From positions 20,832,001 to 20,896,000 of the forward strand of contig JBHGNT010000002.1 of assembly GCA_043228905.1 (NCBI GenBank): a stretch of DNA of 64,000 nt, written 5' to 3'. Source of the DNA: Azolla caroliniana (Eukaryota > Plantae > Polypodiophyta). The notes below the pieces were generated by a model. The model was given only the letters and a program-made list of their open reading frames with translations, searched no databases and was not told the origin of the DNA. This document shows, in pieces, positions 2,201-59,374 of the stretch (positions are counted from its first letter, which is position 1; each line of letters starts with the position of its first letter). The position numbers and the translations under genes are program-made.

Positions 2201-3364
2201 ATCTGAAATGTGCATTTTCTCACTTGTGTAACACATTTTTACACTCCATGATGTGATACATACAAACTAGCATTTGTCAAACAACCCTTTATTGGATTGT
2301 CATGAAGGAAAGATATAGTGATGTTGGGAATGTTAGCCCTTAATACTTTGTTCGTGATGTTCATCATATAGGCTAGTGAATTGGTTGCCCTCGTGCCAAA
2401 GTCCACTTTCTCACTAAGTTCATCGGTGTTCTCACCAAGGTGATATTCCTACTATTCATGACCAACTAGAATCATGGTATCCCTAGTAAAGGTCATCAAT
2501 TGAGTAGATAAATCTTCCTACAAAATCTTTTGTGAACTCATCAACACTTTGCACAATTTCAACATGATTGTGAATTATCACTTTAGTAAGTGAAGTCTTC
2601 AATAGAGCTATTCAAGTATGAGGAATTGTAATGCTCCAAGATATCCATTTTGAACTTTTCTTTTAATAGGTTGATCAATTTGTGTTTGGACTCTTGAACG
2701 GGATCAGCCTCAAGCTGTAGGCACATTTGCATAGTGAATATTACCGTTCATTTAATGTAAGTTAGATCAACACAACCAAATTCTTGCGAAGATAATGCAA
2801 ACGCTTTGCTAGAACATTGCAAAATCTACTTGAAAGTAACAATTGGCGACGGTTTGGTTTGGTTTGAGAGGGTCTAAACCAAACCGTTTAAAATTTTTGA
2901 AACATGAACTGAACTAAACCGAACCACGAAACCGTTAAACTGAACCGATAAACCATTAAACCGTTAAAATCGCGGTTTCGTGGTTCGATTTCGGTTTTCA
3001 ACTTAGGTCAAATTTATAATTTAAAATATTGTCATGTGTGGGGGACCACACTAGGTGGTTTTGTCCCAAGAAGAAAAACTAACTTGTAACTAACTAGGGT
3101 TAGAGCCAAGAAAGGTGGGAAACACTATAAAGAGAGATGCCTACCAAGAGAGAAAGAGGACTATAATTGAGCACATTACATTGGTGGAAATAACGGGCAT
3201 TTTTAGATCAACCACAGCCTGCACACCCACTGATCATCACACAAAAGCAGCCCACCGATCATCACACACGAGTATCCCACTGATCTTCACACAGAGGCAG
3301 CCGCTGAGCCTACAAGTGACCAGCCGAAAAGACGCGAATTCAAGAGAGCATCAACTACACAAAG

Positions 3365-4345
3365 ATGCAGACATCAGATCTCAACAACACAATGAGTATG
3401 CAACCAGAGTTCGTGGAACAGACCTCTCCAAGCAACGCAACCGAGCAAATGCTTCAAGCTATGTCAGCGATGATGCTGCAGGTAAACCACACAAATCAAA
3501 CAATAATGAATTGGTTAACTAATCAATCACAACAAACAGGAAACATCACAGAGAAACAGAAGGACTCACGAATTAGGCCACGATCATTTTCCGGCCTACC
3601 AACAGAAGACGTATTGGCTTGGCTAGATCACTTTGATAATGTTGTCGGCTATCATCAATGGAGTGATGACAGAAAAGCCCTAGAATTGCGCACAGTATTG
3701 GAAAATGTCGCATCAACCTGGTTTATTCAACAACTAGAAGAAGTAAAACAAGATTGGTCATACCTGCGCGAACAATTGGTACAACACTTAGCCAATAACG
3801 ATATAATACAAACAACCCTGCAACAATTAGGTAACATGCGTCAACAAGCACATGAGCCAGTAGCACAGTTTGCAGTAAGATTAAAACAACTCTTACTTAG
3901 AGTAGATCCAAACATGAAAGAGTCTATGAAGCTATATTTCTTGCTGCCAAGGCTGAGACATGACATCTATAGGAGAGTAAAATATCAAGGACCGACAACC
4001 TTCCAACTGGCTGTACAGATCGCCCAACGTATAGAAACACCTGATTATATGGAATTGTCGCAGGCACCTACAATGCCACAACAAAACAATCAGAAGCATC
4101 AAGTCGAATCCACAGCATGCCCGATGGATATTGACATCCAAAATGCACAGATTAATGATAGGAAGCAACTCCCAAGTCGAGACACTCAAGGACGCCCCCG
4201 TTGTTTTTACTGCAATAATTATGGTCATGTTAAGAAATATTGCAGGAAATTCACCGCATCTAAACACCATCAGAACGCACAAATCCAGTTGGCTGATTCC
4301 ACATCTCTTGCCGACATACAGGAAAACATCAATGCGGGACGTTGA
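3365..4345 (+). CDS. gag: Gypsy Gag with CCHC zinc knuckle
   Basis: 326-aa ORF; FSGLPTEDVLAWLDHF capsid start; CFYCNNYGHVKKYC knuckle. Confidence 0.9.
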   Translation: MQTSDLNNTMSMQPEFVEQTSPSNATEQMLQAMSAMMLQVNHTNQTIMNWLTNQSQQTGNITEKQKDSRIRPRSFSGLPTEDVLAWLDHFDNVVGYHQWSDDRKALELRTVLENVASTWFIQQLEEVKQDWSYLREQLVQHLANNDIIQTTLQQLGNMRQQAHEPVAQFAVRLKQLLLRVDPNMKESMKLYFLLPRLRHDIYRRVKYQGPTTFQLAVQIAQRIETPDYMELSQAPTMPQQNNQKHQVESTACPMDIDIQNAQINDRKQLPSRDTQGRPRCFYCNNYGHVKKYCRKFTASKHHQNAQIQLADSTSLADIQENINAGR

Positions 4346-7300
4346 AGGAAGAGCAACTCCCGCACTTCCAAGCCGCTACATCTTCTAGCCGAATAGTCTG
4401 CTCCACAATCGCACGTATTCAGAATACATCACATGAAGCATTACTAGATTCAGGTACCACAATCTCTTCAATTAGTTTAGATATAGTTAATCAATTGCAT
4501 TTACCAACATCATCTGCACCACTAATCCATGTAATTTTTCGCGACAAGCAAAAACTCTATAAATCATTCACACATGCACATTGCACTTTCACACTAGCAC
4601 AACATACTTTCGTCCATTCATTCTATGTCCTACCAAAACAACTCTTTCCTTTAACATTAGGATGTGATTGGTTTGTTAAGCGTGGGGCCCAATTGCATTT
4701 TGACACATAGACATTAGTTCTTCCACATCTTAGGCCTTGCACCACAATTCCCCTTCTTAACACACCTCATACTAGCACACAGGTCATGCATACTCAAATC
4801 CAAATAGAACCAGCACAATCACGTTTGACCGATCTCCGTCGCCTACTCGGGAAGTTCCCGCAAATCTTTATGAAGACAGAAAAAACCACTCAAGTAACTT
4901 TACCAGTGCAACACGCCATACCCACAACGGACTCTCCTCCGGTGAGAATGGCAGCTCGAAGGCGCTCACCACTTGATCATCAACGGATAAACACTGCAGT
5001 CCAAGAAATACTCCAAAAGGATATTATTGAGTCGTCTAGTAGTGAATGGGTATCAGAACCTCATCTAGTCAAAAAAGATGACGGTACATTCAGATTTTGC
5101 ATTGATTTCAGATTACTAAATAAAATTACAAAGCATGACAGGTATCCATTACCACGCATCGACGATTTAATCGACCAACTCGGTAAGTCAAGATACTTTA
5201 CATCCTTAGATCTGGCTTCAGGGTATTGGCAAATACCCCTACGACCTGAAGATAAACACAAGACAGCTTTTAGAACACAGCATGGCTTATACCAATTTAA
5301 GAGAATGCCCTTCGGATTATCAGATGCAGGTAGCACGTTCCAAAGAATGGTGAACACCATTTTTCAAGACCTCATCCATAAAGGAGTCATACTAGTCTAT
5401 CTCGACGATATACTGATACACACTGCTAACTGGTCGCAACATATTCAAGTTCTACAAGAAGTCCTCCTACGCATCCAAAAATATAGCCTACAACTACAAT
5501 TTAAGAAGTGCAAATGGGGAGCAACGGAATTACGATTTTTAGGATTCATGATATCCTCAAAAGGCATCCAACTCGACCCTGCTAAGATACGAGCCATTGT
5601 TGATTACCCAACGCCGAGCAACATCAAGTCCCTACAAAGCTTCCTTGGTCTTGTGAACTTTTCATTACGGTTTATCCCTAACCTAGCCATGGTCACAGCC
5701 CCCTTAAGATTACTATTGAAAAAAGGATCAAAATATCAGTGGTCAGCAGATTGTACACAAAGTTTTGAGAAACTAAAAAAATTAATCAAGGATGCGGGAA
5801 CCTTGGCATTTCCAGACTTCAACAAAGTCTTCCGCCTTCAAACAGATGCTTCCAATTATGGAATTGGTGTTGTGCTCCTGCAACAAGACGACAATGACGA
5901 CTGGCAGCCGATAGCATACATAAGTAGAGCATTGACGAAATCAGAGCAAAACTACTCTACGACAGAAAACGAGTTCTTGGCAATTGTTTGGGCATTCCAG
6001 AAGTTCCACCCTTACCTGCATGGAACATCCGTCCAAGTAGAAACAGATCACCAGCCATTGGCATCGCTCATCCACAAAACTCATCCACCGGGAAGACTAC
6101 TACGATGGGCACTCGCTTTGCAAGAATACAGTTTTACAATGATTTATCGGAAGGGAGCATCCAACACAGTTGTAGATGCTTTATCTCGGATGGAGTACCA
6201 TGTCGCACAATGGGCAGAGGATGCCAATGACCTCCCATTTCAGCCACAGCAAATAGCACAAATGCAACAACAAGACCTTGTGATCAAGGACCTCATCCTG
6301 CGAATACAAAATAGCCATGGCAAGCAGGTATACCGTCATTTTGTTTTAATTGACAACATACTCCATTTTATTAGTCAAGGCCTCCCTCCACGTCTGTATT
6401 TACCGGAGGCATTACGGGCAACTTATCTCGAATTCTATCATAATCATCAGTTGACGGGTCATTTCGGTTTCCATAAGCTCCTCCATCGCATTTGGTCAAT
6501 GTATTATTGGCCAAAATTAAGACAGTCTATCTCTACATTCCTACAAACCTGCTCCACATGTCAGACCGTAAAAAACCCACAGTCCACATATGGTACCTTG
6601 ACACCCATTGAAGTCAAGGAACCTTTTGAGATGGTGGGATGGGACCTTATGGGCCCATTTCCAACATCAATACAAGGAAACAAATATATTTTGGTAATTA
6701 CAGAATACTTAACACAATGGTGCGAAGTTGCTGCCTTATCGGATGCAACAACAAATACGGTCGCCAACGCCCTTCTACAAAGGGTGATTTTTCCTCACGG
6801 ATGCCCTCACCAAATTCTTTCCGATCAAGGATCACAATTCCGAAGCGAAGTGATGCAAGTTCTCACGCAGAGTTTGGGAATAAAGCAATTGTTTACATCG
6901 CCATATCATCCCCAGACTAACGGCCTCACAGAGCAAATGAATAAAACCATTAAACAAACTATTGCAGCCTATGTTGATCCTTTACATCAATCATGGGATC
7001 AAGTATTGCCATTCGCGGTACACGCATACAACATCTCAGTACAAGAATCCACCAAGGTAAGTCCATTCAGGGCATTATATGGCCGCAATCCTCGTCTCCC
7101 CCCAGACCCACACACCATCAAAGTCAACCCACATCATAGTGATGCCACCTCGTGGTGGTTATATCTACAATCAACGATGCCTCTTCTCCGACGAGCCATT
7201 CAATATAATTTAAGTAAAGCCCAACAATGACAAAAGAAATATTTCGACAAATCACATAGGCCAACCACACTCAATATCGGCGAATATGTTCGAGTCTATT

Positions 7301-7470
7301 ACCCGGTGTGGAAAAAAGGTCTTTGTGAATCATTCATGCACAGATGGTTAGGACCATACAAGATCATAGCACGCATCGGCTCGAACACTTAATGGTTACG
7401 CCGAGTCGATAAATCGACGGAAACAATCGCACATGTCTCGCGGATTAGGCGCATACCTCCCCCAACTGAG
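4321..7470 (+). pseudogene. pol: Gypsy Pol (PR-RT-RNase H-integrase-GPY/F), in the -1 frame from gag, with in-frame stops at 4708, 7228 and 7390
   Basis: ALLDSGT protease; FCIDFR, LDLASGYWQI and YLDD in RT; QTDAS and NYSTTENE in RNase H; HHCC zinc finger; SDQG integrase core; RWLGPYKI after the 7228 stop. Confidence 0.92.
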
Positions 7471-7504
7471 AATCTCCACCCCGACGACACCGGTGCGGAC
7501 GACA

Positions 7505-7775
7505 CAGGATTGTCACAGCCATCGACACACCAAGATGTATCCACAATCGATGACTCCACGGGCTTGTCGCAGCCACTGACACACCTGGATGTAGCCACAG
7601 TCGAAGCGCAGACGCATCCCCCACTCTGAATCAATCCATAGCCGCCCACAATCGCCACGCCATCGATAGTGTCACACCTGGATGTCGTTGCAATCGAAGC
7701 ACAGGCGCATCCTTCACTCCGAATCAGACCATAGCCGCCCCCAATCGTCACACCATCGACAATGACACAGTCAAC
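7505..7775 (+). repeat. Degenerate tandem repeats (about 54-bp then about 93-bp units) in the Gypsy 3' region
   Basis: CACACCTGGATGT...CCATAGCCGCCC...CCATCGA occurs twice; TTGTC(A/G)CAGCCA occurs twice. Confidence 0.7.
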
Positions 7776-9119
7776 ATCCTTGGGAGGCGTCACTGTGACT
7801 TTAGCAGTCAAAAACCCTCACTGCACAATAAAGAAGAACAAATGAATAAGGGTCTAGGTTCTACTATGTAATTTTTTTAAAGGGGGAGGTGTCATGTGTG
7901 GGGGACCACACTAGGTGGTTTTGTCCCAAGAAGAAAACTAACTTGTAACTAACTAGGGTTAGAGCCAAGAAAGGTGGGAAACACTATAAAGAGAGATGCC
8001 TACCAAGAGAGAAAGAGGACTGTAATTGAGCACATTACAATATTTCACTATTTAAAATTTTCAAAATTTTAAAGGTGCTCCTAAAATGTGAGAATAAGGC
8101 TTGAAATTGAAATGATTGTTTAAAAACAATTTTTTACAATTTTTTAAAAATTATTTTAAATTTAAAAAAATAAATAATAAAAAACTGTTAAACCATTCAA
8201 ACCATGGTTTCTAACTGTTGAAACCGAACCGAACCGTTTTAAAAAAAAGAACCATTTAAACCGTAAGCCATTAAACTGCGGTTTCCCGGTTCCATTCAGT
8301 TCAAACCGAACCGTTGCGGATTGTTATTTGAAAGCAAATTATTTTTGGGTAAAAGGAAGCTACCTTGAATAACTTTCAGTCTTCTCTTGAGTTTTCTTGA
8401 TGAATGTATGCCTAATACCTCTTTGACTACAAAAGTTTGGATCAATCAATACTCCCGATCAACATATCGATCCTTTAACAAGAGAACAATCACAAACTTC
8501 AACTTCTAATCTACTATTTTAAATTTTGAATTGACTTCCACCTCTTTTGCTACAACATTTTTCATGTATTCATCAACGTAATTGTGCATACAGACATAAT
8601 TCATAACTAGAATCACCCTTATCCTAAGAAAGTTAAAAAGTTTAATGCAATAACCATCAATTCCTCAATCATGTCATTTAATGAAACTTTTTCCCTTATT
8701 TAGACTATATTCTATTAAGTATCTACCAAAAATCACCTCGTATGCTATGGTTCGAGGATACACAAGAGACCTCCTAGAGATGCAGGAAAATAGTGAGAAT
8801 AAAATAAAAATTGTAATAGGGTATAGAGGAAATAATTCAATTGGTCTCCAATGGATGTTAGAAAGAGTGATCTATCTCTCTATCCCCCTAATCACTTTCC
8901 TTAATCCCAAGCCCTAAGCCTAACAATTTTATTTAGCCTAAACATGTAACAATTTAAGTGAATTAATGAAAGTTTGAGTATATTTGTGACTTCTTGTCTC
9001 TCCTTTGTAAAGGGAGATATAACGTGAAATGGAAAAGACCACAAACCTACCAATGGGTTAACCAACTATTATGGATGAAGCTTTTAAGAAAGGAACAAAA
9101 GATTTGCTCAAAACTAAAC

Positions 9120-18854: not shown

Positions 18855-19085
18855 AGTGTGTCGAAGCGATGACCAAAGTTAGATCCCAAGAGACGCTTGT
18901 TGGGTTTTCTTGGAATGATCATATTACCCTTCAGAGTAGTTAAATGGCATGTCAAAGTGATGACCGAAGTGGGATTCCGAGAGAGACTTGTTGGGTTTTC
19001 TTGACATTATCATATTGCCTTTATTAGTAGTCAAATGAGCATGTTGAAGTGATGACCGAACTTGGATTCCGAGAGTCTTGTTGCG
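18855..19085 (-). repeat. About 91-bp tandem repeat (about 2.5 copies) spanning the ARF stop codon and 3' UTR
   Basis: GATGACC(G/A)AA recurs near 18868, 18959 and 19050; CTTGTTGGGTTTTCTTG recurs. Confidence 0.85.
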
Positions 19086-22000
19086 TTGTTCCATCTTCTG
19101 AGCTGCTACTTGTCTGCCTTTGGATGGGAAGCAACCCAACTCCATCCCGCATTTGGAAGGCTTCTGAAGGAGACAATATCCTAAATGACCTCACGTTATT
19201 GATGAATACCCTACAAGAGGAGATACATCCATTAGTGAATGATGGTGAATGAAAACCTTGATAAGACAATACAAGTACTTTGGTTCATGAAACAAAATAC
19301 AAATTCTCAAAAGATGCAAAGTACTTCTTTTTTTCTCATCAAAAGTATTGTAGTACTTTCTTGGTTCATAAAACAAAACAAACAAAAGTACTTACTCCCA
19401 AGGATCATCACCAAGTAGTAACCAATCATTTTCTTTGTCCACAAAAATAAGTTGCCAACCAGAGCTTGTATCCTCAAGTTGCCCTTCGAGCATGAATAGC
19501 TTTGCAACCTCGCGACGGAGCTCATCATAATTGCTGAAGCGTGTGACATCCAGTGAACGGCCGACAGATCCAGTCTTGTAAACCTAAAGGGAATCCAAAA
19601 CAAGATGGTTTGACTGATCCAAAAGCGTTGTGGAATGTATTCAATGTTTAAGAGTTTAGGGTTTAAGGTTGGAAGTTTCTAGAATGTTCCAGATTTCTTT
19701 GACTTTTCTAGAAGGTTCTTCTAGAATCCCTAGGGTCAATGCAAGCATGATTTTTTAATGGTTTAAGAGAAGTAAACAGTTTTTGGCACATAATACAATA
19801 AATTGGAACATTCTAAAGAACTCCACGATATTCCAAACACCAGTTCACTACCTGATATTATTACAAGTGAAGTCCTTCCATTTAGAGAAAGGCAATTCTC
19901 TATGATAGATGCTGATAAAGAAACAAGGCAGGCTATTATTACCTTGGTATAAGTCCTTGCTAGTGGAGCATTGGTCACTGGAGAGAAAGATTGCACCAAA
20001 CGAGAATCATCAAGACCTCCATTGAACATGCTCGAACCAAAGTGGGGTTCGATGCCCAATACCGAAGAAGAATTTTGCATAATACATTGGTTTTGTTGGT
20101 CATTAGTGGCATTATATGCCTTTGACAAAGGTGATGGCAAAGAAGAAGGCATCGTCATCATCATGCCAGGTTGAAAGTCACCATTTCCTCCAAATGAGTT
20201 CCTAGAACTAATAAGCTCAGAGTGCATATCTTCAGGAAAGTCCTTGTAATTGTAAGGATTTGATGGTAAACCTGATGAAAAGTTTGATAATGTGGAACAC
20301 GAGTCCAAGGGCCTTGTAGTATCAATGAGCTCCCCTTTTAGCCCATTTGTTGATATTGATGAGTTTAGAACAGCTTGAGATGTGGGCACTGAATTGTCAT
20401 TTAATGGATTTGTCTCAGATGCAAACCCACTAAAAATAGATTGAAGTGTTTGTGACACACCAGTAGATGTGAGGGAAGCATTGGAATCTGTGAGTGTAGA
20501 TTGAGTTGCAGCTATAGTGCTGTTAAGGAGTCCTTGAGGCTGTGAAGATGGCATTCTGCTCAAAATAGTGGCTATATTAGGTGATGATGATGGTTGTTGC
20601 TGCATTTGCTCAACTTGTAGGACTTGAGCGGTAGGGGGTGTATGTTGAGGAGAAGGGGAGTAATTTGAGATCAACTGTGGTTTTTGCTTTTGTTGTTGTT
20701 GGGCTTGTTGTAGAAGATTGTTTGTATTCCTTGGGTGCATAGAATATGGAAGACATTGAAATGGAGATGTGGGCTGTGGCATGGAGGATGAAACCTGCAT
20801 TTGTTGGGGAATTTGTTGATGATGAAGTGACTGTTGGTGCTGTGATGGTGGTGGTAATGACTGATGATGGAGTTGTTGATGTTGCGGTGGTGAAGGTGAG
20901 GTTAATGACTGTGGTAGTGATTGATGATGGAGTTGTTGTGGTGGTAATGACTGCGGTAGTGATTGATGATGAAGTTGTTGTGGTAATGATTGTGGGAGTG
21001 ATTGATGATGCTGTTGTAAAGATTGAAAATGAACCTGCTGTTGTGGTAATGGTTGATGATGAAGTTGCGGTACTAATGTTTGATGATGAACTTGTTGCGA
21101 TAATGATTGATGCGGAAGTTGGTGTCCTAATGATTGATGTTGAAGTTGAGGCAACGCTTGATGCTGAAGTTGTTGAGGTAATGATTGATGCTGAAGTTGC
21201 TGTGGTACTGATTGTGGTGGTGATTGTTGAGGAAGTTGTTGCGGCAATGATTGGGGTGATGATGGATGATGAAGTTGTTGTGGTTGTAATGATTGTGGTG
21301 ATGATTGATGATGAAGTTGCTGTTGAGGTAATGGTTGTGGTGATGATGATTGATGCTGAAGCTGTTGTGGAAACGGTTGTTGAGTTTGAAGTAAGGGCTG
21401 TTCTTGTGGGTGAAAGAGGAACTGTGCAGCTTGCTGTTGTCTGTAAAACATTTGATCAGCTTGTATACCTGGGGGATGCTGTTGGAAATTCAACTGTTTT
21501 GAAGGGAAAATCTCTTGTAATGCTGCAGCCCCTAGAGCACCATAGATATCAGATTCGTGACTGGAATCTGCCCTTCTTTGAATAGAGCCCAATAGTGGAT
21601 TCATGGCCATCCCATTATTCGGATTTGGATATGGCATCCACATTGACTGTTGCTTCAAGCTCTCCATTTCAAGATCTGATGACAGATAAACAAAACATAT
21701 GATCACCTATGACTATGAGGAGACATATAAAACCATATTTGTTGTAGCAAATGCATTCTCCTATCAAAATGTGTCATAGAAAATATTCCATTCTAACATA
21801 ATGCTTTCTTCTAATATAATGCTTTTTTTTTAACGTCAAGATCACGAAACTCTATTAGCTATCTTCAGTGTATATATGAACAGTTTAAGCCTTCCGCAAG
21901 CTTATTATGAATATAATCGTTCAAAGGGATCATGATACCTTAGGATGCAAAAAAATGGAAAATACTTATTTGGAGGATTACCGCTTGAAAATGAGGCTCC

Positions 22001-25000
22001 AACTGGTTGTGGCCAAGGATGCTTCAACCTCCAATTGGTTGTTGGTGGATAGACAAGAAAAGTCGTAAGTGGTTCAATTTCCCATAAGGAAACTCTCCTT
22101 TGTCGCTCACAAGCTGTAGATTCATCCCATCCTACCTGAAGAAGAAAAAGAAAATAATATAAGATAATCCACATTCGAGTGTCAATGTTTTCCATGGGTC
22201 AATACACTCTTGTTGATATTTTTTAGAGATGTCATCACTGAATAAATACGGTGGAATCATTTCAGTTCAGTAAAACAACATCAGGATTGACAGGTCTATC
22301 TTACCTTTATCGACCGCCATTGTGAATTTGGCCATCGAACCGGATCTAGGTCACAAATACCAGTAATTGTTCCCATATACCTACACATAAAGAACAGTTA
22401 TCTTTCAATTAGAAAAGACATATTGAGCTTTTTGCACGTCATCTTAAAACAAGCTCTGTTGATAAAGACTTGTTCATATGCCTAACATCTGATAAACAGA
22501 TATGTTACGTATTTCTTCTGAAAGAAATGAACCTTCACCTTCGGACACTGGACTCTTCAGTTTCAAATAGCATCCGAAAACGCATGCCCACGGACACCCT
22601 TGTGTGGTATACAGCTTTCTCAAACTTGGTATAAGGGATCACAAATTCTGAAGGGCTTGCTCTGGATGGAAGATCAGAAGGAAATGACTGAATAAGCAAA
22701 CAGACATTACATGCTAAAGCTCAATATGAAAGAATTCATACAAATTATTTCTTATATACATATTTAAAACATATAGACATGATGATTGTACGGTGGTAAA
22801 CCTTGTGCTATGTAACTACCGGTTGTGCATTCAAGTCTTGGGCGATGGGTTTGAAATTGCATTCACAATGAAAATATAAAAATCCTTTTAACTCTTTTGG
22901 TTTGGGACAACGCACACTTACAGTTTCCTCCAAGAAAATTTCGTTTTACAACATTCACAAGGTTCATAATACAAAGAGTGTAGCATTTGAAACAATATTA
23001 CCCTTTAAAAGGCAACAAATGCTAACAAACTCGCATGATAAATTAGCTGAACTGAATCACACCCATCAAATTCTGGTCTTACCTCGGGTTATAAAACACT
23101 GTGAATCGGCTGTTCGTATTTGCAGCATGTGCAGCTGCAGCAAGCACTCCAATATGCATACTATCACTCGATAAAACTGATGAAGGTAATACTGTTTGTG
23201 GCCTATTTGCTCGTCGGATTCCTAGCAATAATTGGCCCTTCTCATTCCTAGACTCAAAAATTAATGTCACAAGGTATCATCAGCGAGGTACTCATGCATA
23301 CTGAACACTAATTGGATAAACCATGTATGTTTGTGGTTGCATAAACATTGGAACAATATCTATGGAAGGACTCTAAGAGATTGATTGTTAAACTGAATTA
23401 ATACACGTGATATCACGTCGTTGTATTGCACACATGGTTCCATAACCAAAGAAGAAGTACATATATTGATCATATTAAATAGGATGTTTTATAAGCAGAA
23501 GATATACTATGATATCATATAAATTGTTATAGCTCATTGAGATACACAATATCATGGCATTGTATTGCACATCAAGTTACTATAATATCATGTCATTGAT
23601 ATTGGCATGAAGTTACCAAAGAAGAGACATATATATTCAAGGTATTTAAAGTATTTACCTTAAGCTGAAGTCATGTCATTGGTATTGCACATATAGACAT
23701 ATACATTTATCTCATGATATCATAGTATATATTCAGCTAGTTCCTAGAACGTTTTTATTATACATCTTATATATATACCTAATAAAAAGAACGGAATCGC
23801 CTGCTGTCAGTCTCTTTGCGCTTACAAAGACACTCCAACCTGTTGTGAGGAGATGTCTCTTCGGCTGCCCTGTGGTGGGTAACCAAGCATACATAAGTCT
23901 TGTATCACAAATATAGAACCACACTGATATAGAAGAAAAGGTTTCTAAAACCATAGTGAAAACCTCTCAGAAATTACCTCTATAAATATGTCGGAACTTC
24001 CACTCGGTGTCATGTAAATCATGAGCTGCAAGCTCCTGTGCAGGTGGTTGTTGGGAGTAGTTCTGTAAGAAACAATTTTATTCAATTCACAATGAGCATT
24101 TTGAAAACATTTCATTCTGAATGCATCTGTTTATGTGTTACATTAAGAGACATAAACATAGATTCATACATATATACATATATATACCATGTACATACGT
24201 ACATACATACATATACACATCCATAAATACATACATACATACATGCATGCACGCATGCATATACATGTTTACAATATATATGTCATGAAGTCTTAAAAAA
24301 TCATCTCTTTGAAATTTTATTCTTTTGTTTAATCTTATTCATGTACATCTCTTACAAGTGGTGGGAAAACTTTCTCAGCTGCACGCCGGGGTATTGAAAA
24401 TCCACCATGGGTGCTTGTATCACTGGCTGTGAGTGTCTTGCAGAAGAAAATATTTGGCTGCCTGCTCTGTGATCCCATGTCTGGTACAAATGATGATTCT
24501 TTCTCCTGCTAAAAGAAGGGAGGAAACAAAGACAAAGAAGATACAAATGACACCAAAATTAGGTATTATGCCCATATATACGACTTTTATAGTTATTAGC
24601 CCACATATTATTGATACATTCTTTGAAAGTTTTGGATCAGAATGAATTATATATACATACCCCAGTTATAGGCTGGAGAGTCATTTGGCAATAGACTTCA
24701 TCAGTTTCCATATCCGCCTATCCAAAGACCCCAAAACACACTCAAAATGTTGAGACAAAGCTTCTTATTAAACTACCACTTTATGAAAGCATAAAAGCCA
24801 ATGTAACAAATTTTTTTTTAAAAGGGTTCAACTTAATCAAAGAAAAGACGCTGATCTAATGCTTTTGGTGGGTTTCCCACCTCATGTAGAGATTACCTTA
24901 GCAATATAAGTTATTACTTAAAAAGTAAAAAGATAAAGGTTAGAGAAGGAATGCATAAACTTACATGAAGGATCACATCATGAAGTTGGCAAATGAGCTG

Positions 25001-25954
25001 AGGAGGAAGGTTAGGATAAGCTGGAATATGGGCATCTGCTTCTTTCTGTGTAGATGCAGCCACCTGAATTAATGAACATGAAAACAACAGTATAAAAGAC
25101 CACCTTAATATATTGTAAAAGACTCCTAAACCACATTGAGAAATGATGCACTATTACACGGTTATTACTAATTAGAAGAATCTCTTAACACCATTGTTTT
25201 TCTTACCAAGGCCTTATTGTTGTATATTCCTAACAAACATTTCAAGAATAGAGCTTTTTTAACTATATAGAGAAGGAATTCAAACACACTTGCTCACTGT
25301 GCCCTTGAGGCAGATAAACGACCCGACTTCCTATGGTTGGCAGCGATACAAGCGGCCCGGCGCATGCATGCCATAGCTCTGAGTTCAGATTCTTCCTTTC
25401 ACCTGCAAGGCCCCAATCCAAATCTCTATGTATGTATGTATGTATGGATGGATGGATGGATGTACCTATGTGCATGTGTGTATGTGTGTGTGTGTGTGTA
25501 CACATATATACATGAATGTATACGCATATATGTGGGTATGTATGCACGTCTGTATATGTATGTATGTGCGTATGTATGTATGTATGTATGTATGTATGTA
25601 TGTATGTATGTATGTATGTATGTATGATGAGATTTGAAAATCCAACCATTCAATTGGATGATCAAACCTTAGCCATAGCCATAGCCATAGCCATAGACAG
25701 ACCAATGGGAAACCCTCTCGCACGTTAAACAAGCAACAGTAGAAACTTAGATAAAGAAAAGCTTTGCAAGAAAGAAACGGAACGCAAATTGTTGTCAGTG
25801 TGAGATATATGTGTATAAAGAAATTATATGCGTATGTATTATGCAAATCTATATATGGATTATTGATGTTGTGTTATGTACCAGAATCTGGAGTTGCGAC
25901 AAAGAGTGAAGAAGCATTGGGTAGCCGTGTCTGCGAAGAAGAATTCATCAGCAT
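19024..25954 (-). CDS. ARF: Class A auxin response factor, ARF6/ARF8-like (B3 DNA-binding domain, dimerisation/ancillary domain, Q-rich middle region, PB1 domain); 14 exons, about 1098 aa
   Basis: Manually spliced GT-AG exons in consistent phase: 25954-25882, 25402-25290, 25063-24965, 24717-24661, 24508-24356, 24062-23978, 23869-23779, 23247-23083, 22661-22539, 22380-22305, 22135-21982, 21675-19943, 19583-19396, 19210-19024 (3297 nt). Motifs: [94 protein letters not shown], terminal SFDY*. Exon 1 start is the least certain part. Confidence 0.95.
20810..21400 (-). repeat. Coding tandem repeat QQLHHQSLP (about 27-33-nt units) in ARF exon 12
   Basis: About 15 imperfect units visible in ORF 19763..21706. 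Confidence 0.85.
25428..25696. repeat. Microsatellites in ARF intron 1: (TATG)n, (GGAT)n, (TG)n, (TAGCCA)n
   Basis: Directly visible. Confidence 0.95.
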
Positions 25955-32289: not shown

Positions 32290-35200
32290 TGTTGAGCGAG
32301 CAAGCTCAGCCGGATTGGTGAGACGGATCGGAGAGCCGGATTCGAGCGGGAACCGGAAGCCTAGTAGTAGCCTAGACTACTAGGTAATCATTGTCTCGTA
32401 GTTAGTGTCAGTCGTTCGTATGAGCATTGAAGTACATAATACTTCAGGCAATCCCTTTGAGAACTTGTATAAATAGTGTTGTTTAGCACGTTGTATGTAC
32501 AGAGTCTTACAGAGTGTCATTTTGAATCTAACTTTATGTGTTGCTCTCTTTGTCTCTCCTGCGTATACTCTTTGTGTATTAAGCTTCTCCATTAAACCTT
32601 CATCTTATTCTCCGTTGTTATCCGGCTAAGCCGGTTCTGTCTAACACTTCCGCACGTTTACATTCACATGGTATCAGAGCGCGAGGGTTGAGAACCTCTG
32701 CAGCCGACACTTGCTTTCGTAGACGAACCCTAGAACCCGGTAACAACAAAAAGAGAGAAGATATGGACAAAGGAATGACGAGTTCACTTCCAACAAAGAA
32801 GCTCGACCAAAGCAACTACGGGTCCTAGTCATACAAGATGCACCAGTACCTGCTGGGGCATGGATATTGGAGCTTCGTGGAAGGAAGGAACGAGGTAGCG
32901 CCAAAGCCGACACACAAGGACTTCTCGGTATGGGAGCAAGGAGCGAGCCGAGTATTGTACTGCCTCATGTCTTGTGTGCAAGACCAGATGCTCGACTACA
33001 TAAAGGATGCAAAAACGCCGAAGGAGGCTTGGGGAAATCTAAGGAAGATTTTCGACGCGAGTATCAAAGCCCATAAGTTACAGCTCCGGCAAGAGTTGAA
33101 CAACATCCGGCAAAGAGACATGTTAGTTACGGACTGCACCAACAAGATAAAGGAGATTTGTGACACGCTCGGGTTCATCAACGTGTCAGTGGACGAAGAC
33201 GAGATGGTACAAATCTACCTCGGTGGTCTAGCGTAGAGGTACGGGCCAATCCGGAAAAAGATTTGCACCCAGGAGAAGCCACCGACTTTCTTCGACTTGC
33301 AATGGATGCTGATGATCTAAGAAAACCACGCGAGTGGGTCGAGGACCACTCAATCGGACAACCGGATGCTGTACACGGAGACAGATCGGCCCCATCGACG
33401 TGGTGGACGAGGTGGGTCGGCACGCAATAGAGGTAGCCGACAAGAGCAGGACCAAAGGCATAGAGGTAGTGCCGACAGTAGTTCTGAACCCTCCACAAGC
33501 AGAGGGAGTCAAAGTAGCGCCGGAAACCAGCAAGGAAAAGCCGACACGGAATGTTGGTATTGTGGCAAAAAGGGCCATAGGGAAAGCAAGTGCTGGAAGA
33601 AGCGCGCCGATTCGGACAAATCTGGATCCGGCAAAACCGGTCAGGAAAACCGGCAAAGCTCGCACTACGCAGAAGGATCCATAACCGGGAAGACCGGTAA
33701 AGGGCCAACCTTCGTGATGAAGCACATGGATAACTTGATGAAGAAGACTACTTTCAAATCGGAGGAAGTATGGTACGTTGATTCATGACAAGCCATGAAG
33801 AATGGTTCTCTTTTTTGGAAAAACTGGAACAACCAAGGATTGTCGAAACTGGAGATGACACCCCTCACTCGATTGTGCATGTCGGAGAAGTCCCTTTAAG
33901 CCATGTCGGACAAAAGGGCAAGCTGATGAACGTACTACACGTTCCGACAATCACAAAGAACTTGGTGTTTGTTGGACAAATCATCAACCAAGGAATGCAG
34001 GTGCGGTTTACGCACCTCAGGTGCTTCATCGAGGAAGAAGGCTAGATAATTGCGCAAGGGCGCAGAGAAGGGAGAATGTTCATCCTCAACACAAATGACA
34101 TCGGCACTGCTATGTTTGCGAAAGGGCAGAAGGTTGAGTCGGACATTGACTTGTAGCACAAGTAGATCGGCAATGTCAACTACCAGAGGCTTCAAGACCT
34201 GCAATTGAAACAAGTTGTGTTCGGATTGCCGAAATATAGTGGCCGGAAGGCCCAAATATGTGAAGCCTGCCAACGCAAGAAGCAACACCGGCTTCCATTC
34301 CCCACCGAACGAAATCAGAGTTGTAACAAGCTCGACTTAATCCACTCGGATGTATGGGAACTGGCACAGAACGTTCGTCTTGGCAGGAGTTGGTATTTCA
34401 TCTCCTTCATCGACGACTACAGCTGACACACGTGGATCTACCTCATTGAACGGAAGAGCGAAGTCTTCGAATGTTTCCGGAACTTGCAAAGCTTAGTTGA
34501 ACGGGAAATGAAGAGGAAGATTAAGTGCTTGTGGTCGGATGGCGGAAAAGAATACTTTTCCGGCCAATTCAACAGTTATTTGCAACAGAATGGAATTCGC
34601 AAAGAATTCAGCTGCAGATACACACTGGAGCAAAACGGTGTGGCCGAAAGGAAGAACTGGTCAATTGTTGACGCGACAAGGGCAATGCTAGAGGAGAAGA
34701 GCATGCCCAAATTCTATTGGGCTGAGGCGGTCCGGACGACCCTCTACATCCAAAACCGGATTGGGGACAAGGTGTCAGCACATGAGCTGTATTTCAGGCG
34801 GAAGCTGAATTTGAGACCTTCGGATATTCGGTAGCATAGCATATGTGCATGTACCGGATGAGAAGCGGAGGAAGCTGGATCCGAAGTCGGAGAAGTGCAT
34901 CCTGGACAGTTACTCGCATGAGCAAATGGGGTATAAGTGCTATAACCCCTAGACTAAGCAGGTCCGAATAAGCCGAGATGTCAAGTTTGATGAGACGACA
35001 TCATGGTACTCCTTACCGACTCCAACTCCCGACGAAGACCCTATTTCAGAAGATGAGGCTAGTGAGCCCGAGGAGGTCTAGGTAGAAGATGAAGACTCTG
35101 CCGTGCTCTCCCCACGGAAGGAACCAAGGAGATGGTTCACATGCAAAGAGAAGGGGAAGAAGAAGATGTCGGAATACGAAACCGGCAACATTGAGTCGGA

Positions 35201-38200
35201 TCGGAGCGAATCCGACTCAAGAAAGGATGAAGGCGGATCTTCGGGAACGAACTCCGAACCGGCCAAGAAGGGCCCCAAACCGGGTGATGACAAGTTACGC
35301 CAATCTTCCCACCAGAAGAACCCATTTATGCGGTACGGGTACAATGAGTACATGGCGCATCACTATGCGTACATGACCAAAGTGGCGGAAGTGCGCGAGC
35401 CAAAGATCTATGCAGAAGCGGCAAAGGACTCAAATTGGCATGCCGCTATGGAAGAAGAAATGTGGGCACTTGATGCCAACGACACATGGGACCTCGTTGA
35501 CCCTCCCCGACACTGTAAACCGATCAGTTGCAAATGGGTGTACAAGGTAAAGTACAATACCGACGGTTCGGTTAACCGGTACAAGGCCCGGTTAGTGGCG
35601 AAGGGATACGCATAGACCCACGGAATCGACTATGAAGAGACCTTCGCTTCGATAACGAAGATGACGACGGTTCATGTGGTACTGGTGTATGCTGCGGCAA
35701 GGGGGTGGCATCTTCACCAGATGGATGTGAAGAATGCGTTTCTTCAAGGTGACCTTGAAGAACGGGTCTATATGATCCAACCTCCCGGTTTTCAGTTGGA
35801 GATGAACAAGTCAGCGGTGTGCTGGCTTAAGAAGTCGCTTTACAGTCTGAAACAAACCCCCCGAGCTTGGAATGCGAAGATCACGCACCGGTTGCGTAAG
35901 ATGGGGTTTGTGACCTCTAAATACACTCATCGTTGTTCATCTGGCAAGGTCCGAACGGTCCGGTTTGCATCTTACTTTATGTAGATGATTTAATCATCAC
36001 CGGACCTAGACTCGATGAAATCGGCTGTGTCAAGGCCCAATTGTTGGACGCATTTGAAATGAAGGAGCTGGGGGACCTTCATTATTTTCTTGGGATCGAG
36101 GTGATCCAAATCCCCGATGGCATATTGCTCTTAGAAAGACACTTTGTGCTGAATATGGTGTACAAGTTCGGCATGACGGAATGTTGACCGATCTCCACAC
36201 CCCTGGACTGGAACCTGAAGCTACGTCTTGACTCCGGACCGGCTTGTGATGAGAAACGGTTCCGACAAATAGTCGGAAGCCTAATATACTTGACAATCAC
36301 CCGACCCGATATCAGTTATCCGGTCAGTGTGATCAACTAAAATATGTAGAAGCCAACCGTGGAGCACCTTCAGTGCGTGCATCAAATATTGCGGTATGTG
36401 AGCGGCACGAAGGACCGAGGACTATTATACCGACATGGTATAACTGAAGAGCTAGTGGGATACACAGATGCCGACTAGGCTGGTGATGCATCGGATCGCT
36501 GATCCACCTCCGGTTACATGTTTTCTCTAGGTAGCGTTGTTGTTGCGTGGAGCAGCAAAACACAGCCGATAGTGGCTCTGTCGAGCACTGAGGCTGAGTA
36601 CCGAGGCGCTACTAATGCCACCTGTGAAGCCATTTGGCTTCGGCGACTGCTGCGTGACCTCTGGATCAAGGTACTGACTGCGATCTTGATCTACTGTGAC
36701 AACATGAGGAGCATTTAGCTCGCCAAGAACTTTGTATTCCATGCTCGAACAAAGCACATAGAAGTGCATTATCACTTTTTTTGTGAGCGGGTCTTGAGCG
36801 GTGAAGTTGAACTTCGGTATGTTCACACGGATCGGCAGGTTGCCGACATCTTCACCAAGCTGCTTGGATCAGACAAGTTGCAACATTTTTAAGAGATGCT
36901 CTGCATTCAACATCTCAATGTGCTGCACTTGAGGGGTAGAACAAGAACAGGAACGGATGGCACCGGACACGGAGCTGAAGAGGAAGAAAGAACCATGGGG
37001 AGAGATAAGCAGAAAAAGAAGACCGAGCCGACAGAATAAGTCGGCAGATCCGAACAAGTCGGAGTAAGCAGCAATGGCGGCAGAGTCAAGAAGGACAGAG
37101 CCGACTAGAAGAAGGCCAAGACGTGGACGTGGTTCGATGTGGTGAAGGGTGTTGAGCGGCAAGCTCAACCGGATCCGGATCGGTTGAATAAGCCTGAGCC
37201 GGATCAACATCCGAAAGGATGAGCCAAATCAACATTTGGAAGGATGAACCGGTGAGCAAGTGAGCTGGTGAGGTGGAGGGCCAGTCAGCTGGATCAAGTA
37301 GTAACTGGAAGCCTAGTAGCAGCCTAGACTACTAGGTAGTTAATGTCTTGTAGTTAGTGTCAGACGCTCGTGTGAGCATTAAAGTACACTGTACCTCTGT
37401 CAATCATCTTAGGACTTGTATAAATAGTGCTACTGAGCACATTGTATTTACAGAGAATTTTACAGAGTTGTTGATAATAGATTTAAGTTGTTCTGCTCTT
37501 TCTCTGTCTCTTCTGCATACCTTCTGTGTGTTAATCTCTCTCTCTCTGTTGCTATCCGGCGAAGCCGGTTCTCTAACGCTTCCACACCTTCGTTTTTACA
37601 TGGTATCAGAGAGCGAGGGTTGAGAACCTCTGCAACCGACATCAACATCTGAAGACAAACCCTAAGACCCGATAAGAACAGAAAGAGAAGGGATGGACAG
37701 AGGAATGGCTAGCTCGCTCCCGGTGGAGAAGCTCGACAGATCCAACTACGCATTTTGGTCATACAAGATGCACCAGTACCTGCTTGGGCATGGTTACTGG
37801 AGCTATGTCGACGGAGCTAATGACACAACACTTGATGCGGCACACAAGGACTTCCCAGTGTGGGAACAAGCGACAAGTAGAGTGATGTACTGCTTTGTGT
37901 CCAGTGTCGGAGACTAGCTGCTGAGCCATGTCCGAGATGCCAAGATGCCAAAAGAAGCTTGGGGAAACTTGAAGAAGGTTTTTGCGGCAAGCACTACGGC
38001 CTAGAAGCTGCAACTCCGACATGAGTTGAGCAATGTCCGACAGAAGGACATGTCGGTAGCCGATTACACGGTCCGAATCAAAGAGACCTATGACTCACTT
38101 GCCTCAATCAACGTCACTGTAGAGGAAGATGAGATGGTGTAGATCTGTCTTGGGGGCCTAGTGTCTAAGTTCAGAGCGTTCCGAATGGCGGTATGTACAA

Positions 38201-41200
38201 GGGAGAATACGTTGTCATTTTTCGACTTATAGTCGATGCTGCTTGTAGAGGAGAACCATGCTGGTGCGTCAACAAGTGCACCCACCGACAACCGGATGCT
38301 ATACACGGAGGCGGATCGGCCCCATGGGCGTGGTGGACGAGGCGGGTCAGCTCGTAATGGTAGCGGCCGGCAAGAGCAGGACCGAAGGCACAAAGAACGT
38401 GCCGACAGCAGTTCCGGACCCTCCACAAGCCGGGGAAGTCAAGGCGGTGCCGGAGGCTGGCAAGCAAAGGCCGACACGGAATGCTGGTACTGTGGAAAAA
38501 AGGGCCATAGAGAAAGCGAGTGCTGGAAGAAGTGTGCCGATTCGGACAAATCCGGATCTGGCAAGGCCGGTAGAGAGAACCGACAATACTCGCACTACGC
38601 AAAAGGATCGGGAGGATCCAAAACTGGAAAAGTCAGTAAAGGGCCAGCCTTGGTGATGAAACATGAGGCTAACTTGATGAAGAAGACCACTTCCAAATCG
38701 GAGGAAGTGTGGTATGTTGATTCCGGTGCGTCGAATCACATGACGAGCCACAAAGAGTGGTTCTCTTTCTTGGCGAAATCGGAACAACCGAGAGTCGTCG
38801 AAACCGGAGATGACACTCCTCACCCAATCGTGCATGTCGGAGAAGTCCCTTTGAGCCACGTTAGACAGAGGGGGAAACTGATGAACGTATTACACGTTTC
38901 GACTATCACGAAGAACCCGATGTCAGTTGATCAGATCGTTGACTAGGGGATGCAGGTGCGGTTTACGCACCTTGGGTGCTTCATCGAGGAAGAGGGCTAG
39001 ATTATTGCACAAGGGCACAGAGATGGGAGGATGTTCATCCTCGACACCAATGACGTCAGCACCGCTTTGTTCACCAAAGGACAGAAGATTGAATCGGATA
39101 TTGATCTTTGGCACAAGCGAATCGGCCAATCAATTACCGGAGGATTCAAGACCTGCAAACGAAACAAGTTGTTTTCGGTTTGCCGAGGTTTAGTGGCCAG
39201 AAGATCCAAATATGTGAAGCCTGCCAACTCGGAAAGCAACACCAGCTTCCATTCCCCACTGAACGAAACTGTAGCCATAACAAGCTCGAACTTATTCATT
39301 CGGATGTATGGGAACCGACAAAGAACGTTAGTCTTGACGGGAGTCGATACTTTGTCTCCTTCATCGACGACTACAGCCGAGCCGGCACATGTGGATCTAC
39401 CTCATCGAGAGGAAGAGCGAAGTCTTCAAGTGTTTCTGGAACCTTCAAAGCTTGGTTGAACAGGAAACGGAGAGGAAGATCAAGTGCCTGTGGTTGGATG
39501 GCGGGAAAGAATACTTTTCCGGCCAATTCAACAGTTATCTGCAACAGAATGGAATTCGGAGAGAATTCAGTTGCAAGTACACACCGGAGCAAAATGGTGT
39601 GGCCCAAAGGAAGAACCGGTCGGTTGTCGACGCGACAAGGGCAATGCTGGAGGAGAAGAGCATGCCCCATTTCTAATGGGCTAAGGTGGTCCGGACGACT
39701 ATCTATATCCAAAACCGGATTGGTGAGAAGGTGTCCGCACATGAGCTGTATTTCGGGCGCAAGCCGAATTTGAGACACCTTTGGATATTCGGTAGCATTG
39801 CATATGTGCATGTGCCGGATGAGAAGCGGAGGAAGTTGGATGCAAAGTCGGAGAAATGCATCCTGGTCGGTTACTCGCATGAGCAAAAGGGGTATAAGTG
39901 TTATAACCCCCGGACGAAGCAGGTCCAAATTAGCCGAGATGTTGAGTTTGATGAGACGACATCATGGTATGCCTTACCGACTTCGACCTCTGACCCTGAC
40001 CTAATACCGAAGGATGAGGATAGTGAGCCTGAAGCGGTCCAGTTAGAAGACGAAGGGTTTGAGACTCTAGATGTGAGTTCAGAATCATTTCAGTTGAGCG
40101 GCCTGAACGAGCGACTGGGTCAGACAGACCAGTCAGAAGATGAACCGGTGAGTAGTGGAGACTCTACCGTGGTCTCCCCACGCAAGGAACTGAGGAGACG
40201 GTTCACATGCAAAGAGAAGGGGAAGAAGAAGATGCTGGAATACGAAACCGGCAACATTGAGTTGGATCGGAGCGAATCCGACTCCGAAAAGGATGAAGGC
40301 GGATCTTTGGGAACGAAATCCGACTTGGCCAAGAAGGGCCTCAAACCGGGTAATACCAAGTTACGCCGGTCTTCCCGCCTAAGAACTCCGTTACGCGGTA
40401 CAGGTACAATGAGTACATGGCGCATCATTATGCGTTCATGACTAAGGTGGCAGAAGTGCATGAGCCGGAGAGCTACGCAGAAGCGGCAAAGGACGCAAAT
40501 TGGCGGTATGCTGGCTAAAGAAGTTGCTTTATGGCCTGAAGCAAGCCCCCCGAGCTTGAAATGCGAAGATGACGCACCGGTTGCGTAAGATGGGGTTTGC
40601 GGCCTCCAAGTTCGACTCTTCGTTGTTCATCCAGCAAGGTCCGGACGGTCCAGTTTGCATCTTGCTGTATGTTGATGATCTAGTCATCACCGAACCCGGA
40701 CTCGATGAAATCAGCTGAGTCAAGTCCCAGCTATTGGATGCATTTGAGATGAAGGACCTTGGGGACCTTCACTATTTCCTTGGGATCAAGGTGATCCGAT
40801 CCCCCGACGGCATATTGCTCTCACAAAGACACTATGTGTTGAATATGTTGTACAAGTTCGGCATGACGGAATGCCGACCAATCTCCACACCCATGGACCG
40901 GAACCTGAAGCTCCGTCCTGACTTCGGACCAGCATGCGATGAGAAGTGGTTCCGAAAAATCGTCGAAAGCCTTATATATTTGACAATCACCCGACCCGAC
41001 ATCAGTTATCCGGTCGACGTGATCAGCCAAAATATGTAGAAGGCGACCGTGGAGCACCTTCTGTGCGCGCATTGAATTTTGCGATATGTGAGTAGCACGA
41101 AGGACCGGGGACTGTTATACCGGCATGGTATAACCGATGAGCTTGTCGTCTACACCGATGCCGACTGGGCCGACGATGCATCGGATCGCCGATCCACCTC

Positions 41201-43377: not shown

Positions 43378-43472
43378 GAAAATGAGGATACACCCACAAA
43401 CCTGACAACACCATATGTGGGCACCTAAAAACCGATGGGTAGGTACAATCAACATTGTGACTGTTGTTGTAC

Positions 43473-44340
43473 TGTTACGGGCATGACCATATAATATCCT
43501 GTGGTGAGAATGTTCCGTAATATTCTATACACGTGGATAAAGTGTGAGGGTTAAACGAGAGTGTAAAGAAGGGGAGGATTACTTTTAATCCTCGGGATTG
43601 AGACAATCCATTAGGCGCTATAAATATGAGGCCTAGCTATCCTCATTTCATCATCTCTTGACTACGTCGAGACTCTGTTCTTGTGGTGGGTCAACTATTG
43701 TAGCGAGCGCGCCAACACCAGGCACGACTCGGTGGTATGGGACGCTGATCGATGCTCTAGTCCGTCTTGATCCTTTCGCTTGGGGGTGGTCGGGTGGATC
43801 AACACCCTTCTTTCTCTCTTGCCTTTCTATCTATCTATTTTTGATATCCTTATCTCATGCTTACTTTAGAACATAAATCTAATAGTTGGTATCAAAGCCA
43901 TGTTTCTAATGTTTCATTTGTTGATTGTTTTTATCTTGTTGGATGGTGATCGATCAATGTACGATTGAGCTTGATCCAGATAACTATCAACAAAGGAACT
44001 TCAATAACTCTTTCTTATTTTTTTTCTATTTCTTTCTTCTCCCAATCTTATCATGTATAGTAAATATGTAATTTTTTACATTGATTCAATTATGTTGTAG
44101 TGGTAATAATTGGTTGTATAAAACGTATACAGATGTGTATGAGGTCAATACCTCCTTTGAAATACATTTGATATGTGATTTGTGTCATATGAATACGAGG
44201 TTAATACCTTAATTGCGTGTGATGTTCACATACATATGTTACGTATCTGTATGAATGAGGTCAATACCTCGATTTGTATGTAAATGATATGCAATTGGTG
44301 TTGTATGCGTAAGAGGATAATACCTCAATTGTGTATTACG
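43473..44340 (+). mobile_element. LTR plus tRNA-iMet PBS plus 5' internal tandem repeats of a truncated retroelement
   Basis: CTATAAATA near 43618; TGGTATCAAAGC near 43887; GAGGTCAATACCT repeated about every 57-60 bp at 44140-44330; left end uncertain. Confidence 0.5.
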
Positions 44341-54925: not shown

Positions 54926-55052
54926 ATAACTTTGGTTGAGTAGTTATTGATCGAACTCCTGAAGACCAGATGCACATCTGAGATTTGGGATCTGAATGAC
55001 TGCCATGGAAGCTCTCGCTGCTGTTGTGTCCACTTCCTCTCATGGATTTATT

Positions 55053-59373: not shown

Positions 59374-59374
59374 C

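What the first reader, a model, noticed from the sequence alone, without database searches (positions are those of the whole stretch)
3030..8039. Young Gypsy with animal-like hallmarks in a plant genome (candidate horizontal transfer or undescribed lineage)
Seen: 151-bp LTRs with 2 differences, 4-bp ATAT TSD, non-Met PBS TGGTGGAAATAACGGGCA, separate gag and pol frames, no chromodomain. Known: plant Gypsy lineages (chromoviruses, Athila/Tat) normally make 5-bp TSDs. Inference from recalled motifs: NYSTTENEFLAIVWA, GRLLRWALALQEY and PFEMVGWDLMGPFPTS..GNKYILVITEYLT look more like arthropod and other metazoan Gypsy elements, and the PBS resembles a tRNA-Ala 3' end. The element sits inside a hAT MITE with an intact TSD, so it is integrated rather than contamination.
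Basis: partly seen in the sequence, partly recalled or inferred. Interest (0 to 1): 0.75.

Follow-up and report, generated by a model that had tools for sequence, protein, structure and literature searches.

The report
Fern retrotransposon lineage targeting ATAT sites
This is a real, recently inserted but broken copy of a jumping-gene family that is abundant in a water-fern genome, has close relatives in other ferns and nearly always sits at the sequence ATAT; it likely belongs to or beside the known spikemoss group Selgy and shows no sign of a recent jump from animals.

Summary
The anatomy is real: a 5,010-bp Ty3/gypsy element with near-identical LTRs, an ATAT duplication and no chromodomain, inside a hAT-type MITE. 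Three stops break this copy's pol. The host is a fern (its rbcL equals a record named Azolla caroliniana). The element is one of at least 150 related copies. 35 of 38 two-LTR copies have 4-bp duplications (29 ATAT), none 5-bp; host chromoviruses give variable 5-bp ones. The PBS matches host tRNA-Ala (16/18). Gag overlaps pol behind a conserved -1 slippery site. Every named close relative is a fern (Adiantum RT 67-77%, Ceratopteris gag 56%); arthropod elements are only 43-48% in RT and fall outside the fern clade. Recent transfer from animals is therefore not supported. Size, TSD length, primer, ORF layout and lack of extra domains all match REXdb's Selgy, but no Selgy sequence was available, so membership is untested. 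The strict ATAT targeting differs from what REXdb reports for plant lineages. Verdict: a resident, Selgy-like fern lineage with sequence-specific integration; modest interest.

The parts
2829..2836 (.). left 8-bp target duplication of the MITE (CTTGAAAG)
   Evidence: 7/8 match to the right copy
2837..3025 (+). left part of the hAT-type MITE, TIR TAACAAT...
   Evidence: 1528 candidates, 40 scored, 80-88% identical; 8-bp TSD with at most 1 mismatch in 9 of 19 copies
3026..3029 (+). left 4-bp TSD ATAT
3030..3180 (+). 5' LTR, 151 bp, TGTCATG...TTACA
3182..3199 (+). primer-binding site, 16/18 to host tRNA-Ala(UGC/CGC)
3226..3302 (+). three 25-27-nt repeats in the leader
   Evidence: D3
3365..4345 (+). 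gag (first ATG 3365; Ty3-type capsid, CCHC knuckle), open
4321..4327 (+). predicted -1 slippery heptamer G GAA AAC in the gag frame
   Evidence: G-GGA-AAC or G-GAA-AAC at this place in 9 of 12 copies, one-base variants in 3
4333..4364 (+). predicted stem-loop 5 nt behind the heptamer
   Evidence: -15.4 kcal/mol, z -3.08, 3 of 200 shuffles as good
4297..7629 (+). pol frame (-1 to gag): protease, RT (YLDD), RH, integrase with GPY motif at 7351-7359; broken by stops at 4708-4710, 7228-7230 and 7390-7392
7577..7762 (+). 93-bp tandem duplication at the end of pol, 81% identical
   Evidence: D2
7879..7889 (+). polypurine tract
7890..8039 (+). 3' LTR, 150 bp
8040..8043 (+). right 4-bp TSD ATAT
8044..8326 (+). 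right part of the MITE, ending ...ATTGTTA
8327..8334 (.). right 8-bp target duplication of the MITE (TTTGAAAG)

Best explanation
This is a recently inserted, pol-broken copy of a chromodomain-less Ty3/gypsy family that is shared by an Azolla-type fern, Adiantum and Ceratopteris, carries a tRNA-Ala primer site and sits almost always at ATAT, and is likely a long-resident fern lineage of the Selgy type. How it works: an LTR transcript is translated into Gag; a minority of ribosomes is predicted to slip -1 at G GGA/GAA AAC, held by the stem-loop behind it, to make Gag-Pol (inferred from conservation, untested). Host tRNA-Ala likely primes reverse transcription (match shown, priming inferred). The integrase likely reads a short palindrome and cuts with a 4-base stagger, giving ATAT or one-base variants (target pattern shown; that the integrase itself reads it is inferred). 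This copy cannot make full Pol from its own frame, but copies with open gag and pol and identical LTRs exist, so the family has moved recently. The animal-like RH and integrase motifs are best read as old features of chromodomain-less Ty3/gypsy elements.
For: Host: rbcL from the assembly is letter for letter a record named Azolla caroliniana. Family: 150 of 150 scored RT matches at 61-100% on all 22 large contigs. TSD: 35 of 38 two-LTR copies 4-bp, 0 of 38 5-bp; ATAT 29, GTAT 4, ATAC 1, CTAT 1. Control: host chromoviruses 18 of 20 loci with 5-bp TSDs, all different. PBS 16/18 to host tRNA-Ala, 18/18 in one copy. Overlap and heptamer kept across subfamilies 71-100% alike in RT. 9 of 29 wider-family copies have LTRs without a substitution. 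Gag search: 44 hits of 494 candidates, all 9 named ones ferns (8 Adiantum, 1 Ceratopteris), 52-59%. RT: Adiantum 67-77%, named arthropods 43-48%. Tree RT-RH-INT, 72 rows: fern clade 100/100 with Adiantum inside, sister P0397 99/96, all 6 named arthropod rows in another branch 96/88; fern+Araneus rejected, p-AU 5.5e-6. Selgy profile: 4 bp 96%, mean 5,044 bp, tRNA-Ala 90%, overlapping gag/pol 65%, no extra domain (PMC6317226 Additional file 5).
Against: No Selaginella-named protein appeared in three homology lists (120 + 120 + 44 rows), and no Selgy, Phygy, Athila or Tat sequence is in my trees, so the tie to Selgy rests on structure alone. REXdb calls TSD sequences variable in all lineages but Phygy, whereas this clade is ATAT-specific. 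The nearest outgroups (P0397, P0020, P0035, P0117) have no host name. The element is closer to arthropod elements (RT 43-48%) than to the host's own chromoviruses (37-41%). Only three fern genera in two orders are attested, and 77% RT identity to Adiantum could also reflect fern-to-fern transfer. 53 of 72 tree rows are unnamed and may include animals.
Confidence: 0.75

Rival explanations
1. An unnamed lineage separate from Selgy that entered an early fern by ancient horizontal transfer from a non-plant eukaryote and then spread with ferns.
For: Long stem (0.46) and a gap from 56-97% in the clade to at most 45% outside it; no Selaginella, moss or seed-plant name among close hits; ATAT targeting is described for Drosophila errantivirus subgroups (PMC5408687 passages); REXdb says the relation of plant non-chromoviruses to non-plant lineages is unclear.
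Against: Five of five structural features equal Selgy's, which is simpler to explain by kinship; no donor clade is identified; repeat proteins are poorly annotated in most plant genomes, so missing names are weak evidence.
Confidence: 0.2
2. Recent horizontal transfer from an arthropod or other animal into this plant.
For: RH motifs nearly match arthropod elements (NYSTTEKECLAIIWA, GRLARWSLELQEY in P0017); 4-bp ATAT target; spiders and a pseudoscorpion lead the named second-tier hits.
Against: Best named animal identity 43-48% in RT; at least three deep subfamilies in the host; Adiantum and Ceratopteris relatives; fern clade outside the arthropod-bearing branch; AU test rejects fern+Araneus; PBS fits the host's own tRNA-Ala.
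Confidence: 0.03
3. Contamination or misassembly of animal DNA.
For: None beyond the animal-like motifs.
Against: Copies on all 22 large contigs with TSDs; nested in a host MITE; the window also holds a plant ARF gene; a 4,472-nt contig of an independent run covers 3257-7819 with 112 differences (X14).
Confidence: 0.01

Closest known systems
Selgy (REXdb non-chromovirus clade from Selaginella moellendorffii; PMC6317226)
   Same: 4-bp TSD, ~5.0 kb, tRNA-Ala PBS, gag overlapping PROT-RT-RH-INT, no chromodomain, aRH or extra ORF
   Different: Host is a fern; strict ATAT target, whereas REXdb notes a sequence preference only for Phygy; sequence kinship untested
Phygy (REXdb, Physcomitrella)
   Same: Non-chromovirus of a seed-free plant with 4-bp, sequence-specific TSD
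   Different: Phygy: NCGN target, tRNA-Trp, 7.7-10 kb; here ATAT, tRNA-Ala, 5 kb
Drosophila errantivirus subgroups gypsy/ZAM/Idefix
   Same: Palindromic 4-base targets TATA, CGCG or ATAT
   Different: No env ORF here; the integrase has a GPY motif, which errantivirus integrases lack; no errantivirus sequence was in my trees
Chelicerate Ty3/gypsy elements (Araneus, Cordylochernes, Trichonephila, Nuttalliella proteins)
   Same: RH and integrase motifs, no chromodomain, Integrase_p58_C-type tail
   Different: Only 43-48% RT and 35-41% integrase identity; separate branch of the tree
Tcn1 chromoviruses of mosses and lycophytes
   Same: Precedent for a plant Ty3/gypsy clade nearer to non-plant elements, with ancient transfer proposed
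   Different: Tcn1 has a chromodomain, 5-bp TSD and self-priming

Membership tests
Ty3/gypsy (Metaviridae) | LTRs, PBS, PPT and domain order PR-RT-RH-INT | tested here: met
   best PDB match Ty3 Gag-Pol, E 4e-123
Selgy | clusters with Selgy in RT-RH-INT trees (the primary criterion) | not testable with these tools
   REXdb FASTA and element table too large to read; no Selaginella-named hit
Selgy | 4-bp TSD (96%) | tested here: met
   35 of 38
Selgy | tRNA-Ala PBS (90%) | tested here: met
   16/18 to host tRNA-Ala; Ala-type PBS in all subfamilies
Selgy | size 4.4-6.7 kb, mean 5.0 kb | tested here: met
   5,010 bp; 26 of 29 wider copies 4.4-6.1 kb, 3 shorter
Selgy | gag overlapping PROT-RT-RH-INT, no extra domain or ORF | tested here: met
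Selgy | TSD sequence without preference (stated for all lineages but Phygy; descriptive) | tested here: not met
   ATAT 29 of 35, the rest one base away; Selgy's own TSD list could not be read
Phygy | NCGN target, tRNA-Trp, 7.7-10 kb | tested here: not met
Chromovirus | chromodomain, mostly 5-bp TSD | tested here: not met
   host chromoviruses form the outgroup
Athila/Tat (OTA) | aRH domain (Tat), 7-24 kb, extra ORFs | tested here: not met
   no OTA sequence in the trees
Errantivirus group | env ORF or descent from env-bearing elements; integrase without GPY/F | tested here: not met
   no third ORF; GPY at 7351-7359; descent not tested
Recent horizontal transfer from animals | nested among animal elements with high identity | tested here: not met
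Recent horizontal transfer from animals | patchy distribution in plants | tested here: inconclusive
   found in Azolla-type host, Adiantum, Ceratopteris; other fern and lycophyte genomes not searchable here
hAT-type MITE (flanking element) | short, TIRs, 8-bp TSD | tested here: met
   autonomous partner not sought

The most novel reading that the evidence does not exclude
An unnamed, fern-wide Ty3/gypsy lineage, independent of Selgy, that was acquired once from a non-plant eukaryote before Salviniales and Polypodiales split, is still moving in Azolla, and has an integrase that targets the palindrome ATAT as strictly as Drosophila errantiviruses do.
Probability: 0.2. Interest if true: 0.62.

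Novelty: new variant of a known kind. Interest (0 to 1): 0.36.

Why it matters
REXdb's Ty3/gypsy classes rest on a survey that called Selgy species-specific. A recently active fern clade with Selgy's anatomy would either widen Selgy from one spikemoss to ferns or add a lineage to the scheme. Its strict ATAT targeting is a second plant case of sequence-specific LTR integration after Phygy, and with many young copies in a small genome it offers a way to ask which integrase residues read the target.

Tried and rejected
Recent animal transfer, contamination, chromovirus, Phygy, Athila/Tat and errantivirus membership: rejected as above. 5-bp TSD reading: 0 of 38. Getting Selgy sequences: supplement too large; three homology searches and two cluster look-ups of hits gave no Selaginella name. 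The representative search was swamped by multi-copy artefact proteins and gave only unnamed rows of at most 44%. Host of the sister P0397: Logan only, atlas uninformative, nothing in viral contigs. A host tRNA-Ala variant fitting the two PBS mismatches: none among 20 loci read of 212 pattern matches; the direct pattern found nothing, not even the known genes, so it was badly designed and shows nothing. Expression: no RNA holder listed; in two polyA runs of organism E (about 12% read) 44 and 31 reads were laid, mostly on the MITE, none over gag or most of pol; the organism may differ from the host, so this says little. Ala-type PBS in metagenome loci L219/L221: they fall far from the fern clade. 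A pseudoknot at the frameshift site was considered but not tested. Tat Z1/Z2 (aRH-less Tat in ferns, PMC10508981): not testable without sequences. Literature: nine searches listed no paper describing this fern clade or its ATAT target; subscription journals and Repbase are not covered.

Full report
Observation. The element spans 3030-8039. Its LTRs (151 and 150 bp, TG...CA) differ by one substitution and one indel. ATAT flanks both ends and a 5-bp reading fails. A PBS (3182-3199) and a polypurine tract (7879-7889) are in place. Pfam gives Ty3 capsid, protease, RT, RH and integrase, with no chromodomain or second RH. The flanking element is a ~480-bp TIR element; 9 of 19 other copies have 8-bp TSDs with at most one mismatch, and the copy here has 7 of 8.

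Host. The assembly is 523 Mb with 22 large contigs. Its plastid rbcL protein is identical to a record named Azolla caroliniana, an entry shared by nine database members, so I read the host as a water fern of the genus Azolla and go no further. This changes the baseline: 5-bp TSDs are the seed-plant norm, but REXdb's table gives 4-bp TSDs for Selgy (96%), Phygy (100%) and TatI (100%).

Family. The LTR search gave 28 matches and the RT search 150 of 150 scored matches at 61-100% (a lower bound). I paired 18 of the 28 LTR loci into 9 elements and anchored both LTRs in 29 of 40 further loci; 10 LTR loci and 11 loci without usable ends were left out. Of these 38 copies, 35 have a 4-bp duplication and none a 5-bp one: ATAT 29, GTAT 4, ATAC 1, CTAT 1. 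Three also fit 6 bp because they sit in AT runs. Two copies share the same flanks and may not be independent. ATAT makes up 1.0% of 4-mers in 121 kb of host flanking DNA. As a control, 18 of 20 host chromovirus loci have 5-bp TSDs, all different; one lacked an LTR pair and one had unresolved ends. Nine of 29 wider copies have LTRs with no substitution, so the family moved recently.

Primer and translation. The PBS pairs with host tRNA-Ala(UGC/CGC) at 16 of 18 positions; one copy matches 18 of 18. Two copies have open gag and an open, overlapping pol in the -1 frame. In the 12 of 30 copies whose gag reads to the overlap, G-GGA-AAC or G-GAA-AAC stands at the same place in 9, one-base variants in 3. 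In the window a stem-loop begins 5 nt later (z -3.08). That is the usual layout of a -1 frameshift signal (established knowledge); frameshifting itself is inferred.

Relatives. In the RT-RH searches the top tier (59-97%) is unnamed ENA proteins and four Adiantum nelumboides proteins; apart from multi-domain artefact rows, the rest lie at 49% or below. The gag search gave 44 hits; the 9 named ones are 8 Adiantum and 1 Ceratopteris. In metagenome contigs, 31 of 79 loci are at 56% or more and all of these come from one ENA series; the other 48 are at 45% or less. Sequencing runs under five organism labels hold 33-45% of the element's words; I laid two of them. Domain identities: Adiantum RT 67-77%; named arthropods RT 43-48%, integrase 35-41%; unnamed P0397 51/51/45%.

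Trees. A 244-row RT-RH FastTree, a 72-row RT-RH-INT IQ-TREE (41 lower-scoring full-domain rows left out; three Adiantum rows under half filled) and a 76-row tree with metagenome loci agree. The fern clade has full support and holds Adiantum among the host's subfamilies. Its sister is P0397 (99/96), then three more unnamed proteins. All six named arthropod rows lie in another branch (96/88, rooted on host chromoviruses). Holding the ferns with Araneus costs 151 log units (p-AU 5.5e-6); I chose that group after seeing the tree and did not test the tick and pseudoscorpion group. No Selgy, Phygy, Athila, Tat or errantivirus sequence is in any tree, and most rows are unnamed.

Comparison. REXdb's Selgy: 4-bp TSD, 5,044 bp mean, tRNA-Ala, overlapping gag/pol, no extra domain. 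All five fit. Against: the paper calls Selgy specific to Selaginella and TSD sequences variable except in Phygy; a liverwort genome paper also labels elements Selgy. I therefore call it Selgy-like, not Selgy. ATAT targeting recalls Drosophila errantivirus subgroups, but those integrases lack GPY/F and this one has GPY. That Salviniales and Polypodiales split over 200 million years ago is recalled; one passage dates Cyatheaceae to about 218 Ma.

Papers seen. PMC6317226: abstract, passages, sections 8, 9, 13, 15, Additional file 5 and the text of file 6; files 1 and 3 (element table, sequences) could not be read and bear directly on the Selgy question. PMC10508981: parts 1-2 of 3. Passages only: PMC5408687, PMC12885004, PMC9002660, PMC13469084, PMC6696364, PMC6786969, PMC10886601, PMC12924346, PMC12541382, PMC9040795.

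Verdict. Real element, resident fern lineage, Selgy-like, with unusually strict ATAT targeting. Recent animal transfer is refuted for the sequences sampled; an ancient non-plant origin stays open at about 0.2. Interest 0.36.

Noticed in passing
window 2837-8326; L010/L015, L284 (L018), L285 (L019), L290: 4 of the 17 elements matched by the window's LTR, plus one found by its PBS, sit inside the centre of the same MITE family at different positions (about 180-260 of 430). Only 1 of 29 wider-family copies and 1 of 277 background 400-nt windows touch the MITE. An apparent subfamily-specific hot spot, unexplained.
   Followed up: partly
window 3182-3199: The two PBS mismatches to host tRNA-Ala are shared by most copies of this subfamily, although a PBS should be recopied from the primer each cycle; no matching tRNA variant was found among 20 loci.
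   Followed up: partly
window about 19020-25420, minus strand: Intron-rich gene that reads like an auxin response factor with a long Gln/His-rich middle region (recognised by eye from exons; the middle exon has no Pfam hit).
   Followed up: no
window 60542-62971, minus strand: A second, degraded Ty3/gypsy element of a different lineage (RT, RH, integrase zinc finger).
   Followed up: no
window 33000-44000 and 49000-59400, also 65-613: Several degraded, nested Ty1/copia elements.
   Followed up: no
G000 C11:15.997-16.008 Mb, C16:4.04-4.05 Mb, C18:8.83-8.85 Mb: Long tandem arrays of tRNA-Ala-like genes with periods of about 1.0-1.2 kb; 212 pattern matches in all.
   Followed up: no
L086, L087, L090, L091, L095: In one subfamily the 5' LTR ends with one more copy of a 16-nt unit than the 3' LTR, just before the PBS.
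   Followed up: no
L171-L182: Young host chromoviruses whose LTR is followed by GTTTG... and no tRNA-type PBS, as expected of self-priming Tcn1-like elements.
   Followed up: no
L006/L009 (G000 C1:36.115-36.142 Mb): A family copy whose two LTRs lie 27 kb apart with a matching ATAT, implying a large nested insertion.
   Followed up: no
P0397: An unnamed Logan protein is the supported sister of the fern clade and shares its SEPH and GHLGFHKV stretches; a candidate for a true Selgy or for the nearest non-fern relative.
   Followed up: partly
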